Shown here: in pieces, positions 13,426 through 16,139 of the stretch
How positions within the stretch are numbered: the stretch's first letter is position 1
Layout: each line of letters begins with the position of its first letter
Origin: a virus
UHGV virus genome: UHGV-0143838
DNA length: 49,897 bases
Direction: 5' to 3' (one strand)
The notes under the pieces: model-generated
The model's database searches: none
Told to the model about the DNA's origin: nothing
The model's input: only the letters and a program-made list of their open reading frames with translations
Made by a program: the position numbers and the translations under genes

Positions 13426-14013
13426 TTAATATGTTCCCCTGACCCATTCACGCAACCATATTATATTATCATTAACTTCTATACATCGCATTTTAACTAG
13501 ATCATTAATAATATCATCGAATGATACATCCACTAATTCCTGCATTCCGTAAAAATTGAATTGTATGCCACTCTTTGCAAACGCATCATCTCTCCTTATT
13601 TTATTAGACTCATCTCTTCCTTGCCATAAGACGTACAAAACAGTAGCATGTTCTGGTGTAAGTTCTATAGACGAATGACACCAAATCTTATTCCAAATAC
13701 TTAACGCCGCAAAAAATATTAATTTTGGTTCGGCTGCAACACCTGCTGCTGTTAACACTAAATCGGGTAGATCATTGAATAATTCTCTCCAATTAAGAAC
13801 AAAATTACCTAACTTTCTTGATTTTCCACCACGTCGACCTAATGAGTTGACTGTAATATACTCCATTACAAATTTTTCTTTTTCAGGCGGAGTTAATCTA
13901 CAGAATGAATCGACTAAAGAAATAGCGGTTTTATCATTCTCAGTAAATAGTTCATGAACAATACCAATTATCTCATTTTTTTTGTTTTCTAATTTTTCAT
14001 AGTCATAGCTCAT
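13426..14013 (-). CDS. hypothetical protein
   Basis: ORF 195 aa; no recognised motif. Confidence 0.45.
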   Translation of the reverse strand: MSYDYEKLENKKNEIIGIVHELFTENDKTAISLVDSFCRLTPPEKEKFVMEYITVNSLGRRGGKSRKLGNFVLNWRELFNDLPDLVLTAAGVAAEPKLIFFAALSIWNKIWCHSSIELTPEHATVLYVLWQGRDESNKIRRDDAFAKSGIQFNFYGMQELVDVSFDDIINDLVKMRCIEVNDNIIWLREWVRGTY

Positions 14014-14363
14014 TTGTCACATAGTCCTTTTGATTACTAACACAGGTATCTTTGTCCCTAAGGCTATTTAGCATATTTTGTTCAGTATTTCAACATATTA
14101 AACAAATAATTAAATGATTGTATAGTCTACCAGTTCTATTAATGGCTGCTCTGAAAATGCTTAATGAATTTCCATCGTTGTCTTTGGCATCACTGTTATA
14201 AAAATGTAACAATACAAAATTAAATGCGATAATGTTAGCTCATCGATCGCAATCACTACTTAGATTGGTTGAAATAGACTACTCGGTTTGAAAATTAGTT
14301 CCCCAAATAGGACTAACGTAAAAATAGTAATCAAGCATAGACTTCGGTAGGCACCATGCTTAC

Positions 14364-15344
14364 TTAATGTATAATTTTCCCACACAGTCGTAGCTCTGGA
14401 GGCTCAGCTAGTTTAATACTACCAATACGTATGGGCAGCTCGCTATCTTGCTGGCACAACTTCTTAATGGATTGCCACTCCGCTTTTTCAGACTCCATGT
14501 GAGCAGCGAGCGAATCAAATGCACCTTCGGCTACAACGATGGTGGATTCTTCATCTGTTTCATTGCCAGTCGACTCCGCATTTGGATTTTCAGCGCGTTC
14601 TTCTTCCAGTTCAGCCAGACTCGCTTTCAGCTCATCAAGACTGCTGGCGGCGTCTTTTGGTGCATTGAAGAACAGCCCACTGATGAAGATAGCTTCCATT
14701 ACCTCACTGAAAGAAAACGAGGTATCGCCATAAACAAAGCAGCCATGCTTGGAACTCTTCACCCCTGATACGTTCTTCTTCAACAATCCATCCTTCGACG
14801 AAGTCATCAATGTCTGTTTGCTATAGAGGATTACAGGCAGGTTTTTAATTTGTTGAACATCGCCGCTGATACTCCAGCGTTCTTTATCACCTTTAATGAA
14901 GCCTGAAGCATCGCAACTACTTTCTATGTCAAATTCATCAGTCGGGAACCGCTCGCGATTAAAATAGGTTGAAAAATCTTCCCCTTCTTCCATATCCTGA
15001 CGCTTGTAAGCGCGATAAACCGAGCTTCGATGGTCAATCCCAATCCATTCAATATCCCATGTCATTGGCCCGGACGGTTTTCTTACCTCATCTATGTAGG
15101 CACCAACATCTCTGTCCAGATAAGCCGCTAACAATTCCTTCCACGGCTCTATAGCCAAAAAGATACTTGCCAGTGTTGTTCCATCTTCAATCAGGGCCGT
15201 ATGGCGAAAGAAACGGAGAAGAAAGAAGGGGTCAGCATCAGCTATCGCGTTCTGTATGGAAAGCAACGGAACAGCCGAGGTTTCATCATAATCGGACTGA
15301 AACCGCAGTATTGCATCGGAACAAAAAATTAACTTACCTTCCAT
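14364..15344 (-). CDS. hypothetical protein (acidic C-terminal region)
   Basis: ORF 326 aa; noticeably higher GC than flanking island DNA; no family recognised. Confidence 0.5.
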   Translation of the reverse strand: MEGKLIFCSDAILRFQSDYDETSAVPLLSIQNAIADADPFFLLRFFRHTALIEDGTTLASIFLAIEPWKELLAAYLDRDVGAYIDEVRKPSGPMTWDIEWIGIDHRSSVYRAYKRQDMEEGEDFSTYFNRERFPTDEFDIESSCDASGFIKGDKERWSISGDVQQIKNLPVILYSKQTLMTSSKDGLLKKNVSGVKSSKHGCFVYGDTSFSFSEVMEAIFISGLFFNAPKDAASSLDELKASLAELEEERAENPNAESTGNETDEESTIVVAEGAFDSLAAHMESEKAEWQSIKKLCQQDSELPIRIGSIKLAEPPELRLCGKIIH

Positions 15345-15399
15345 CGCTCATCCTCCTCCTGTAGTTATCAGACAAAATATTTTACCAGATCATAGATTG

Positions 15400-15861
15400 T
15401 TATCGCATTTTACTTTTTGCTGCTTCATATTCATTAATATGGTCCTTAAAAGTGCTTATCGCTTTTGGCAATGACCTGTTAAGTAAACCATTAATCTCCT
15501 GTGATGCTTTTCCGTTTCTGACGACCACGATATATCCAAGAGTCAGATCTTGTCTTATCATTGGATTCAATGGTTCTATACCTACGCTAATCCCCGTATT
15601 TTTGTATTTAGCAACCGGATACCCAACTGAACTATGGATAACAATATTATCGCTATCTGCAAGCCTTGATAACATTCTGTCGCTATATATCGCTTTTCTT
15701 AAATCCTCTAAAACAGGGATATAGTGTTTATCCATGTTTCCTGTCAAAGCTGTAGGCAAGTAGATTTTTGTTTTTATTTTTCGCATGATATTTTTCCTGT
15801 TATTGTTTTTATTTAATACCATGCTACTGATCGTAATATCAAAAATATTTATTATGTTCAA
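15400..15861 (-). CDS. hypothetical protein
   Basis: ORF 153 aa (internal ATG starts possible); 8 bp downstream of the 15870-16139 ORF, likely co-transcribed. Confidence 0.45.
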   Translation of the reverse strand: MNIINIFDITISSMVLNKNNNRKNIMRKIKTKIYLPTALTGNMDKHYIPVLEDLRKAIYSDRMLSRLADSDNIVIHSSVGYPVAKYKNTGISVGIEPLNPMIRQDLTLGYIVVVRNGKASQEINGLLNRSLPKAISTFKDHINEYEAAKSKMR

Positions 15862-15869
15862 TATAACTT

Positions 15870-16139
15870 TTATAACATCTGTGATTTTATAGTTTCTTCA
15901 CTCATCTGTGTGAGTTCTGAAACCAAACGAATATAAATATTTTTCAACCTGTCTTTATCACAACGACTTACAGATTCTGATAACAGATAATGACTATAAT
16001 TATTGACGCAAATGTTGTTGCCGTTTTCAAGAGTTAATTTCAATCCGAGTTCTGTATCTTCTACTTTGTTTACAATACAGATCATGAATGGTGTTTTGTC
16101 ATGTGGATGGAAGAGTGTGATCATTTTGATATTATTCAT
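15870..16139 (-). CDS. hypothetical protein
   Basis: ORF 89 aa; first gene of an apparent two-gene minus-strand pair. Confidence 0.4.
   Translation of the reverse strand: MNNIKMITLFHPHDKTPFMICIVNKVEDTELGLKLTLENGNNICVNNYSHYLLSESVSRCDKDRLKNIYIRLVSELTQMSEETIKSQML

What the first reader, a model, noticed from the sequence alone, without database searches (positions are those of the whole stretch)
13426..16139. Minus-strand cluster of four unknown genes, one with atypically high GC
Four co-directional ORFs (89, 153, 326 and 195 aa) lie between the Mrr-like nuclease and the long non-coding region. The first two are separated by 8 bp. The 326-aa gene has a distinctly higher GC than its neighbours, suggesting separate acquisition. 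None has a recognisable motif, so the cluster is a candidate for an uncharacterised small system (toxin-antitoxin or defence-like).
Basis: inference. Interest (0 to 1): 0.35.

Follow-up and report, generated by a model that had tools for sequence, protein, structure and literature searches.

The report
Mosaic island genes, not one system
The four unknown genes are real, but they are not one toxin-antitoxin or defence unit: three are optional backbone genes of a known Salmonella ROD21-type genomic island in E. coli, and the fourth is a rare cargo gene with a DNA-binding-type fold that sits in the island's defence-gene slot.

Summary
Four minus-strand ORFs exist at the stated coordinates, all under purifying selection (dN/dS 0.07-0.20). 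The 326-aa gene has GC 0.454, against 0.31-0.36 for its neighbours. None matches Pfam, NCBIfam, PADLOC or PHROGs.

The interpretation as one small system does not hold. The window is E. coli chromosome, inside a ROD21-like (EARL) Asn-tRNA island. The 89-, 128- and 326-aa genes are homologues of Salmonella SEN1988, SEN1987 and SEN1986 (97/91/88% identity, same order). They are inherited independently:
- the 89-aa gene is nearly always present, opposite RepL across a control region with conserved palindromes;
- the 128-aa gene is a clean ~0.45-kb indel;
- the 326-aa gene is often deleted or frameshifted;
- the 195-aa gene occurs in 19 of 520 E. coli genomes that carry any part of the region.

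These presence/absence patterns argue strongly against a toxin-antitoxin pair. The 326-aa protein belongs to a wider Pfam-less family of stand-alone proteins. One clade of it sits next to an MksFEBG (Wadjet-like) cluster. The 195-aa protein has a confidently predicted C-terminal winged helix and lies, with the Mrr-like nuclease, in a slot that holds Thoeris or other defence genes in sister islands. The functions remain unknown. Interest is low to moderate.

The parts
15870..16139 (-). w89: 89-aa protein, homologue of ROD21 SEN1988. It is the near-invariant gene facing RepL across the control region.
   Evidence: ORF. (AAGGA ribosome-binding site). (97% identical to the ROD21 gene, 270 nt, SEN1988). 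(present in 24 of 25 loci). (59% homologue on a minimal EARL-like island in a Klebsiella plasmid, with no w128 or w326). dN/dS 0.07-0.11.
15400..15786 (-). w128: 128-aa protein (the mechanical 153-aa ORF runs to 15861), homologue of SEN1987. It is an optional ~0.45-kb cassette between w89 and w326.
   Evidence: ATG at 15786 with AGGA; RefSeq 128 aa. (family limited to Escherichia, Salmonella and Citrobacter; all hits at least 67% identical; many truncated forms). (clean absence of window ~15393/15440-15869 in L095, L017, L019, L030). dN/dS 0.20.
14364..15344 (-). w326: 326-aa protein, homologue of SEN1986. It belongs to a Pfam-less family of stand-alone ~320-390-aa proteins and has higher GC (0.454) than its neighbours.
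   Evidence: strong AGGAGGAGGA ribosome-binding site. (homologues). (184 representatives at 50% identity with E<=1e-3; no Pfam hit in 69 members). (GC; dN/dS 0.07-0.19). (frameshifted, deleted or remnant copies in many E. coli).
14014..14363 (.). 350-bp AT-rich spacer separating w326 from w195. A weak hairpin lies at ~14332-14362 just after the w326 stop. The recombination breakpoint of the cargo slot is at ~14394-14400.
   Evidence: hairpin -12 kcal/mol, not better than shuffles. (homology to ROD21, L012 and L095 ends at window 14394-14400).
13426..14013 (-). w195: 195-aa protein of a rare family, separately transcribed. The C-terminal ~75-100 residues form a winged helix; the fold of the N-terminal half is unknown.
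13370..13405 (.). Strong hairpin between the convergent w195 and Mrr genes. It is probably a shared bidirectional terminator.
   Evidence: -19.2 kcal/mol, z -4.1, 0 of 200 shuffles fold as well. Sequence.
12420..13289 (+). Mrr_cat nuclease gene, convergent with w195. In E. coli it is linked with w195 as one cargo block.
   Evidence: PF04471. (the window allele, 99-100% identical, occurs only together with w195 in L033, L039, L085; a 75% allele occurs without w195 in L088 and L090, and one search shows the same for L013). (a remnant of the Mrr 3' end lies next to w195 in Klebsiella L010 and L017).
16470..16648 (.). Two 39-nt imperfect palindromes (16470-16508 and 16610-16648; core GTGATTGT-N4/5-ACAATCAC) in the control region between w89 and RepL.
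   Evidence: repeat family D1, inverted repeat I6. (the core is present 1-3 times between Rep and w89 in the EARL-type loci, 60 of the 107 loci fetched, and in none of the Mks or Pantoea loci). (region conserved in ROD21).
17058..17603 (+). RepL-family winged-helix protein (counterpart of SEN1990), divergent from w89 across the control region.
   Evidence: PF05732, E 1.9e-5. (RefSeq annotation). PMC10655114 on SEN1990.

Best explanation
The four ORFs are a mosaic stretch of an Enterobacteriaceae ROD21-like (EARL) genomic island, not one functional system.

Shown:
- w89, w128 and w326 are homologues of SEN1988, SEN1987 and SEN1986, in the same order and in the same place relative to RepL, DUF4756 and H-NS.
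- w89 is the near-constant partner of the Rep-proximal control region with its conserved palindromes.
- w128 is an optional cassette.
- w326 is a stand-alone protein that is often lost.
- The island's cargo slot begins at the 3' end of w326.
- w195 lies in that slot. It has its own upstream spacer, ribosome-binding site and terminator, and it is linked to the Mrr-like nuclease allele found here.

Inferred:
- w89, w128 and w326 are read leftwards as one transcript from the control region. The gaps are 83 and 55 nt, and no terminator-like site was found between the genes.
- w89 is most likely a small accessory or regulatory factor of the island's Rep/maintenance module.
- w326 acts on its own in conflict between mobile elements and hosts. 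Most copies of its family sit beside defence or toxin-antitoxin genes or at island ends.
- w195 is a nucleic-acid-binding (winged-helix) protein that arrived as cargo with the nuclease. It may be a regulator or sensor for a neighbouring effector.
For: Island identity: the window is 100% identical to E. coli FDAARGOS_1259/1260 chromosome. The annotated neighbours are TraD, MobQ, DotA/TraY, RepL, DUF4756, H-NS, an AlpA-type HTH protein and DUF6387. The ROD21 locus has the order 89-128-320 aa, then the 536-aa SEN1985. The EARL family is described in PMC6035254.

Independent inheritance.

w89 core linkage.

Cargo slot: ThsA 8e-203 and ThsB 1e-85 in L012, and PDC-S15 in L030. DUF4238 is annotated at the slot in L014, an HhH protein in UPEC 536 and SEN1985 in ROD21.

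w326 family contexts:
- MksF-MksE-MksB-JetD_C block;
- a TIR protein in L026 and MazEF in L027;
- an SF1 helicase with DUF2726 and a RES toxin in L068;
- AbiEi, a ligase and HipA in L074;
- an overlapping 238-aa gene in Pantoea.

w195: winged helix, terminator, rarity.

Real genes: dN/dS 0.07-0.20.
Against: No function is demonstrated for any of the four proteins.

- The structure prediction of w326 failed (pLDDT 34), so its fold is unknown.
- The operon structure is inferred from spacing and the absence of terminator-like sites only. The promoter scan was not above shuffled expectation.
- The neighbourhood evidence for w326 rests on about eight distinct contexts, and two of them are plain metabolic surroundings (L072, L031).
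- The Mks association comes from one nearly identical block (92-96% nucleotide identity across most of 11 loci), so it counts as one evolutionary event.
- w195 always follows w326 with the same spacer in the enterobacterial islands that have it. A functional link between those two is therefore not strictly excluded.
Confidence: 0.6

Rival explanations
1. One reading: the four genes form one uncharacterised small system (defence-like or toxin-antitoxin) that is inherited and acts as a unit.
For: The genes are co-directional and short, and the gaps between the first three are short. No known domains were found. The cluster is next to a nuclease and inside a mobile island.
Against: The genes do not co-occur. 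Only 19 of 520 E. coli genomes with the region have all four, and 3 of 25 metagenome loci do. Every partial combination exists. w195 is separated by a 350-bp spacer and has its own terminator. The w326 and w195 families occur without each other elsewhere.
Confidence: 0.04
2. w89 and w128 are a type II toxin-antitoxin pair (a small upstream antitoxin and a downstream toxin).
For: The sizes (89 and 128 aa) and the order fit. The gap is only 8 bp if the TTG start is used. The pair is retained together in many E. coli that have lost w326.
Against: w89 occurs without w128 in about 35% of the E. coli copies sampled and in Klebsiella, Erwinia and Enterobacter. w128 is intact next to a w89 with an internal stop in strain 09-02E. 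One metagenome locus has w128 without w89. Neither protein matches any toxin or antitoxin family. With the supported ATG start the gap is 83 bp.
Confidence: 0.04
3. w195 and the convergent Mrr-like nuclease form a two-gene defence module. w195 is a winged-helix sensor or regulator and the nuclease is the effector. Relatives of w195 pair with other effectors (HNH, TIR), which would be effector swapping.
For: The w195 gene and the window allele of Mrr travel together in E. coli (L033, L039, L085). A remnant of the Mrr 3' end lies next to w195 in Klebsiella. The two genes share a terminator. Distant w195 homologues are followed by an HNH nuclease of PDC-M01B/PtuB type (L008, 1.8e-9), by a TIR-effector-like protein (L015, 1e-8) or by unknown ~205-aa proteins, and one has an HNH-like gene upstream (L016). 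The slot holds defence systems in sister islands.
Against: An intact Mrr (75% allele) exists without w195 (L013, L088, L090). An intact w195 exists without Mrr in Klebsiella-type islands (L017, L036). The genes are convergent here, whereas the metagenomic partners are co-directional. Other neighbours are a convergent DUF8245 gene and an MGMT-like gene. Only about seven contexts are known. There is no PADLOC hit for w195 or for this Mrr.
Confidence: 0.17
4. w326 is functionally tied to SMC-type plasmid defence. It would be either a fifth component or regulator of MksBEFG/Wadjet-like systems, or, when orphaned on a mobilisable island, a counter-defence factor against them.
For: Homologues about 70% identical are the first gene of a block made of the w326-like gene, MksF (MukF winged helix), MksE, MksB (MukB N-terminal and hinge domains) and a 335-aa JetD_C-like protein. 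This was seen in Klebsiella indica, Phytobacter, Kluyvera, Scandinavium and several metagenomes. The gap to mksF is 128-140 bp, and the block begins ~250 bp upstream of the w326-like gene at a partial tRNA-Asn 3'-end repeat.
Against: All Mks-linked copies belong to one nearly identical block (92-96% nucleotide identity), so this is a single event. One copy has the w326-like gene partly deleted while the Mks genes remain (L089). No Mks genes accompany w326 in EARL islands, in Pantoea or in the more distant members. Profile comparison finds no similarity between w326 and the JetD-like protein (probability 0.2%).
Confidence: 0.1

Closest known systems
Salmonella Enteritidis ROD21 genes SEN1988-SEN1987-SEN1986 (EARL island family; PMC3198454, PMC6035254, PMC10655114)
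   Same: The proteins are 97%, 91% and 88% identical, in the same order and orientation. They occupy the same position, opposite the RepL-type gene across a ~1-kb non-coding region with the same palindromes, followed by DUF4756 and H-NS. Those papers also call them hypothetical, and Phyre2 found nothing reliable for most ROD21 hypothetical proteins.
   Different: The gene after the SEN1986 homologue here is w195 plus a convergent Mrr nuclease, not the 536-aa SEN1985. The RepL allele differs (the window RepL gives no tblastn hit in ROD21) and SEN1991 is absent. This E. coli island also carries a DotA/TraY-like gene.
Type II toxin-antitoxin modules
   Same: Small adjacent co-directional genes on a mobile element.
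   Different: The pair is not inherited together, each gene occurs without the other, one copy has a disrupted w89 beside an intact w128, and neither protein has a toxin or antitoxin domain.
MksBEFG / Wadjet plasmid-defence clusters
   Same: A clade of the w326 family is the first gene of an island block that carries mksF, mksE, mksB and a JetD_C-like gene.
   Different: There are no Mks or Jet genes in the window. w326 shows no detectable homology to JetA-D or MksG. The association has been seen only once in evolutionary terms.
Defence-island cargo slots of integrative elements (Thoeris ThsA/ThsB, PDC-S15 and DUF4238 at the same position in sister EARL islands)
   Same: w195 and the Mrr nuclease occupy exactly the slot, starting at the 3' end of the SEN1986 homologue, that holds Thoeris in E. 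coli E1 and PDC-S15 in Enterobacter.
   Different: Neither w195 nor this Mrr-like protein matches any PADLOC model. No defence activity has been shown.
Winged-helix domains of Orc1/Cdc6, MukF and MarR-type regulators
   Different: Sequence identity is only 5-19% and there is no AAA+ or other known N-terminal domain. The N-terminal 110 residues, with the conserved SFC.L.PP and GG.S.K.GN..LNW motifs, have no known counterpart.

Membership tests
EARL (ROD21-like) Asn-tRNA genomic island | AlpA-type recombination directionality factor accompanied by the ~840-bp gene of unknown function (DUF6387) near one island end | tested here: met
   RefSeq annotation of the identical locus shows an HTH regulator (annotated as AlpA family in sister loci) and DUF6387 at window ~20355-20573 and 20790-21626. 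The same pair is in ROD21. The feature is described in PMC6035254.
EARL (ROD21-like) Asn-tRNA genomic island | MobA/MobL (MobQ) relaxase plus a TraD homologue | tested here: met
   Both are annotated 16-20 kb to the left of the cluster in the identical E. coli locus L003. This lies outside the window itself.
EARL (ROD21-like) Asn-tRNA genomic island | P4-like integrase next to an Asn-tRNA gene, with 24-37-bp direct repeats | not tested
   The window has no tRNA gene and no copy of the tRNA-Asn 3'-end repeat. The integrase end of the island lies outside the window and was not fetched. In sister locus L001 an integrase and mtfA/ybtS flank the island.
EARL (ROD21-like) Asn-tRNA genomic island | Full-length and truncated H-NS homologues (common but not universal) | tested here: met
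   A 134-aa H-NS lies at 18395-18799 and an 80-aa H-NS-family protein at 19318-19560.
ROD21 SEN1986-SEN1988 gene set | Sequence homology and conserved order next to the RepL-type gene | tested here: met
   tblastn gives 88%, 91% and 97% identity over the full length, in the same order. Gene lengths of 963, 423 and 270 nt match the table in PMC3198454.
Type II toxin-antitoxin system | The two genes are inherited together; a toxin gene is never intact without its antitoxin | tested here: not met
   Every presence/absence combination of w89, w128, w326 and w195 is seen. This includes w128 intact beside a w89 with an internal stop, and w89 without w128.
Type II toxin-antitoxin system | Recognisable toxin or antitoxin domain | tested here: not met
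   No Pfam, NCBIfam or PADLOC hit at E<=1 that is meaningful.
Type II toxin-antitoxin system | Toxicity of one product, neutralised by the other | not testable with these tools
   Needs expression experiments.
Known anti-phage defence systems (PADLOC-DB 2.0) | A match of at least one protein to a system model | tested here: not met
   There were no matching families for the four proteins or for the Mrr-like protein. Neighbours in sister islands do match (ThsA, ThsB, PDC-S15).
Wadjet / MksBEFG | SMC-like JetC/MksB with kleisin and KITE subunits and a Toprim JetD/MksG nuclease in the locus | tested here: not met
   None of these is present in the window. They occur only beside a sister clade of w326. 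hhalign of the w326 family against the JetD-like protein gives probability 0.2%.
Winged-helix (wHTH) domain proteins (applies to w195 only) | H-β-H-H-β-β topology that superposes on solved winged-helix domains | tested here: met

The most novel reading that the evidence does not exclude
At least one of the two larger proteins founds a new conflict-system family. Either w195-type winged-helix proteins are the constant sensor or regulator subunit of a two-gene defence module with swappable effectors (HNH, TIR-like, Mrr-type nuclease). Or the Pfam-less w326 family (184 clusters at 50% identity) is an autonomous defence or counter-defence protein of integrative islands, with one clade recruited as a fifth gene of an MksBEFG/Wadjet-like system.
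Probability: 0.15. Interest if true: 0.55.

Novelty: new member of a known kind. Interest (0 to 1): 0.27.

Why it matters
The result removes a false lead. The cluster is not a new four-gene or toxin-antitoxin system. It is a further E. coli copy of the partly conserved, still uncharacterised SEN1986-SEN1988 region of ROD21-type islands, plus cargo.

Three by-products are useful to people who study these islands (ROD21, ICEKp258.2, IE3):
- The 3' end of the SEN1986 homologue marks a recombination hotspot. It carries Thoeris, PDC-S15, an Mrr-type nuclease, DUF4238 and others.
- SEN1988 (w89) and a conserved palindrome pair belong to the Rep-proximal core. They are testable candidates for island maintenance or control.
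- Two protein families without any model (w326, w195) are now delimited, with alignments and contexts, for defence and counter-defence screens.

Tried and rejected
- AlphaFold2 of w326 with a 21-sequence alignment of close homologues failed (mean pLDDT 33.7), so no fold search was run on it. Deeper relatives from the representative search cannot be submitted to the structure tool.
- The afdb50 fold library was unavailable.
A smaller alignment worked.
- PDB sequence and profile searches for all four families gave only chance-level hits.
- Rfam found nothing in 13200-17200.
- The promoter scan was not above shuffled expectation.
- Looking for domain fusions in longer w326-family members gave nothing. 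One 803-aa hit is low-complexity noise.
- tblastn with w326 found nothing in phage records, and in the plasmid collection only short fragments in two mislabelled chromosomal records. A pattern scan of the viral contigs with the w195 alignment found no relative. tblastn with w89 and w128 against plasmids gave the same two mislabelled records, plus one island-bearing Klebsiella plasmid for w89.
- The IMG/VR hits to w326 lie at the ends of predicted proviruses. I read them as island DNA adjoining prophages, as in this window, and not as phage genes.
- I first took the '49% in two pieces' E. coli class for an internal deletion of w326. Annotation and alignment showed that w128 is the missing part and w326 is intact.
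- Rejected: w326 as a divergent MksG/JetD, and any similarity between w326 and w195.
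Full report
**What is there**

The ORF list shows four minus-strand ORFs exactly as described: 15870-16139 (89 aa), 15400-15861 (153 aa from a TTG), 14364-15344 (326 aa) and 13426-14013 (195 aa). I call them w89, w128, w326 and w195.

The sequence shows Shine-Dalgarno motifs before w89, w326 (AGGAGGAGGA) and w195. For the second gene, an ATG at 15786 is preceded by AGGA. RefSeq annotates this 128-aa form in the identical genome. The "8 bp" spacing therefore depends on the mechanical TTG start. With the supported start the gaps are 83 nt (w89 to w128) and 55 nt (w128 to w326). A 350-nt spacer lies before w195.

GC content is 0.454 for w326. It is 0.311, 0.357 and 0.330 for w89, w128 and w195, and about 0.30-0.33 for the spacers. 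Pairwise dN/dS against homologues from Salmonella, Klebsiella, Pantoea and K. indica is 0.07-0.20 for all four genes. These are genuine protein-coding genes, not chance ORFs.

None of the four has a significant match in Pfam, NCBIfam, PADLOC or PHROGs. Profile searches of the PDB sequences found nothing.

**Where it is**

The region is 100% identical to the chromosomes of E. coli FDAARGOS_1259 and 1260. The annotated surroundings, from left to right, are:
- TraD, a MobQ relaxase, lipoproteins, DotA/TraY;
- the Mrr-type "restriction endonuclease";
- the four hypothetical genes;
- about 0.9 kb of non-coding DNA;
- RepL, DUF4756, H-NS, DUF6404, a short H-NS-family protein, an HTH regulator (AlpA family in sister loci), DUF6387;
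- a Mu-like prophage.

[quoted passage not shown] A Salmonella locus fetched through the w326 homologue is ROD21 itself. It has DUF6387, AlpA, SMODS/SLATT, H-NS, DUF4756, SEN1991 and SEN1990 (RepL type). A 1.3-kb gap follows, and then genes of 89, 128, 320 and 536 aa. The window proteins are 97%, 91% and 88% identical to the first three. The ROD21 gene table identifies them as SEN1988 (270 nt), SEN1987 (423 nt) and SEN1986 (963 nt), all "hypothetical". A 2023 study that ran Phyre2 on each putative ROD21 protein found no reliable homologue for most of the hypothetical ones, and none of these three appears in its results table (PMC10655114). Three of the four genes are therefore known but uncharacterised island ORFs.

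**Do the four genes travel together? No.**

In complete E. coli genomes, 520 of 5426 carry part of the 3.1-kb region and only 19 carry at least 80% of it. I took an evenly spaced sample of 60 of the 520 and checked it against annotation and alignment. The approximate classes are:

| Share of sample | Configuration |
|---|---|
| ~5% | all four genes |
| ~12% | w326 + w128 + w89 |
| ~35% | w326 + w89 without w128 (the UPEC 536 type in the sample) |
| ~18% | N-terminal stub of w326 + w128 + w89 |
| ~17% | w128 + w89 only |
| remainder | smaller pieces |

The w128 difference is a clean indel of window ~15393/15440-15869. Decayed copies are common. w326 is frameshifted in strain E1. w89 has an internal stop next to an intact w128 in strain 09-02E. 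w89 is frameshifted in UPEC 536.

Among 25 metagenome loci with an intact close w326 homologue and enough flank, 24 have w89, 9 have w128, 6 have w195 and 3 have the Mrr gene. Each gene therefore occurs without each supposed partner, including the potentially lethal combinations.

**w89 belongs to the island core**

- It is found in essentially every EARL-type locus, always divergent from the Rep gene across a 0.9-1.3-kb AT-rich region.
- A minimal EARL-like element on the Klebsiella plasmid pINF177.2 has H-NS, DUF4756, Rep, the gap and a 59% w89 homologue. It has no w128 or w326.
- The gap contains two 39-nt imperfect palindromes (16470-16508 and 16610-16648). Their core, GTGATTGT-N3-6-ACAATCAC, occurs one to three times between Rep and w89 in the EARL-type loci fetched (60 of the 107 loci). 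It occurs in none of the non-EARL loci. The region is conserved in ROD21.

I infer that w89 is an accessory or regulatory factor of the Rep/maintenance module. This is inference from position only.

**w128** is a narrow family: Escherichia, Salmonella and Citrobacter only, all hits at least 67% identical, with many truncated forms.

**w326 is a member of a larger, unmodelled family**

Close homologues (at least 69% identical) occur across Enterobacterales. A profile search of 1.84 billion representatives found 184 clusters at 50% identity (E <= 1e-3). Most are full length at 320-390 aa. A Pfam scan of 69 diverse members and of the longest members found no domains or fusions. The extreme N-terminus (M-E/D-G-x-L-I-F-C-x-D-x-I-L-R-F) and a few residues (D10, R14, E53, T57, W68) are nearly invariant. 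The structure prediction failed (pLDDT 34).

The genomic contexts fall into clades:
- Copies at least 81% identical are in EARL islands beside w89.
- Pantoea copies (~73%) are followed by an overlapping gene for a 238-aa protein that looks like a membrane protein, between phoH and phoA.
- Copies 66-71% identical are the first gene of a block made of the w326-like gene, MksF (MukF winged helix), MksE, MksB (MukB N-terminal and hinge domains) and a 335-aa JetD_C-like protein. This was seen in K. indica, Phytobacter, Kluyvera, Scandinavium and several metagenomes.
- Other copies sit beside a TIR protein (L026) or MazEF (L027).
- One sits between an SF1 helicase with DUF2726 (MkoA/MkoC-like) and a RES toxin (L068), and another beside AbiEi, a ligase and HipA (L074).
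- Two copies lie among ordinary metabolic genes (L072, L031).

The Mks block starts ~250 bp upstream of the w326-like gene, at a partial tRNA-Asn 3'-end repeat. It is 92-96% identical at the nucleotide level across most of the 11 loci. It is therefore a single event and weak evidence of a functional link. In one copy (L089) the w326-like gene is partly deleted while the Mks genes remain. Profile comparison shows no relation to the JetD-like protein.

tblastn with w326 gave no phage match, and in the plasmid collection only short fragments in two mislabelled chromosomal records. The IMG/VR hits lie at provirus edges. The simplest reading is a stand-alone protein of integrative islands and defence neighbourhoods. 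Its biochemical function is unknown.

**w195 and the cargo slot**

Homology between the window and ROD21, E. coli E1 and UPEC 536 stops at window ~14394-14400, inside the 3' end of w326. What follows differs from island to island:

| Island | Content of the slot |
|---|---|
| E. coli E1 | Thoeris (ThsA 8e-203, ThsB 1e-85) |
| Enterobacter (L030) | PDC-S15 FRG-domain protein |
| E. coli YJ1 | DUF4238 |
| UPEC 536 | HhH protein |
| ROD21 | SEN1985 |
| this window | w195 + Mrr_cat nuclease |

w195 has its own spacer and ribosome-binding site. A strong hairpin at 13370-13405 (-19.2 kcal/mol, z -4.1) lies between it and the convergent nuclease.

In E. coli, w195 is linked to the window allele of Mrr. 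Klebsiella islands keep w195 with only a 110-bp remnant of Mrr. An intact 75% Mrr allele exists without w195.

Distant metagenomic w195 homologues (40-52% identical) have variable neighbours:
- an HNH nuclease of PDC-M01B/PtuB type;
- a TIR-effector-like protein;
- unknown ~205-aa proteins;
- an HNH-like gene upstream;
- a convergent DUF8245 gene;
- an MGMT-like gene.

This is compatible with a sensor-plus-swappable-effector module, but about seven contexts are too few to establish it.

**Verdict**

The "one small system" interpretation is not. The stretch is a mosaic with two parts. The first is an optional three-gene backbone segment of a known island family, with w89 tied to the Rep control region. 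The second is a separately transcribed cargo gene in a defence hotspot.

I rate the mosaic reading at about 0.6 overall. The structural part of it (no single system, homology to ROD21, a cargo slot) is much more secure than the functional guesses. It is a new member of a known kind, and interest is low to moderate.

The most novel reading still open is that w195 or w326 founds a new defence or counter-defence family. I put that at about 0.15.

Noticed in passing
window 16470-16508 and 16610-16648: Two 39-nt imperfect palindromes 140 bp apart (core GTGATTGT-N4/5-ACAATCAC) lie in the non-coding region between w89 and RepL. The core recurs 1-3 times at the same place in the EARL-type loci fetched (60 of 107 loci), including ROD21 and a plasmid-borne island, and is absent from the non-EARL loci. 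It is a candidate operator, origin or protein-binding site.
   Followed up: partly
window 16555-16569 (minus strand): A terminator-like hairpin followed by a T-run lies ~400 nt upstream of w89, just downstream of the first palindrome on that strand. It could end a short leftward transcript from the control region. Rfam has no match there.
   Followed up: partly
L032 10001-18889 (Klebsiella indica); also L021-L025, L065-L070, L076, L089: A five-gene block: a w326-like gene, an MksF-like gene (MukF winged helix), MksE, MksB (1527 aa) and a 335-aa JetD_C-like protein. It begins at a partial tRNA-Asn 3'-end repeat (TGGCTCCTCTGACTGG), and the chromosomal flanks differ between genera. It is a MukBEF-like Wadjet/MksBEFG variant on an Asn-tRNA island, which PADLOC recognises only weakly.
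   Followed up: partly
L012 3635-5699 (E. coli E1): A complete type I Thoeris pair (ThsA 8e-203, ThsB 1e-85) sits in the same slot that holds w195 and Mrr in the window. This shows that the 3' end of the SEN1986 homologue is a defence-cargo hotspot of these islands.
   Followed up: yes
window 8818-11532: A DotA/TraY-family gene (about 880-900 aa), with a 167-aa gene downstream, lies in this E. coli island variant. It was not among the genes called in the ROD21 stretch fetched, which hints at an enlarged transfer module.
   Followed up: no
window ~22695-48300: A Mu-like prophage (tail fibre, baseplate J/gp47, tape measure, sheath, tube and head genes) directly abuts the DUF6387 end of the island. 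No tRNA gene or tRNA-Asn repeat is present in the window, so the island end here may have been remodelled by the prophage.
   Followed up: partly
CP088875.1 and NZ_OL790696.1 (PLSDB records; loci L001, L002): Two records filed as plasmids are evidently chromosomal. One is 393 kb and carries mtfA, an integrase and ybtS next to the island. The other is 4.8 Mb. Their 'plasmid' hits to this region are misleading.
   Followed up: partly
L082 / L091 / L106 7001-8053; L080; L081: Homologues of w326 that are 30-35% identical lie on very AT-rich contigs (GC 0.25-0.32). One of them, 437 kb long, is listed in IMG/VR as viral. All their neighbours lack Pfam matches. The host or virus is unknown.
   Followed up: no
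L006 10996-11712, L020 6984-7709 (Pantoea); L084 10610-11368: In Pantoea the w326 homologue is followed by a 238-241-aa gene that looks like a membrane-protein gene and overlaps it or nearly does. The product has no Pfam match, and the 238-aa copy scanned has no PADLOC match. A 62% homologue of that protein also occurs as cargo in an E. coli-type EARL island, not adjacent to w326.
   Followed up: partly
window 17058-17603 versus L004 7111-7845: The RepL-type gene of this island (181 aa) gives no tblastn hit on ROD21's SEN1990 (244 aa), although both match Pfam RepL. Islands carry one or the other allele, and the SEN1990 type comes with SEN1991. The flanking w89 and DUF4756 genes stay more than 90% identical.
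   Followed up: partly
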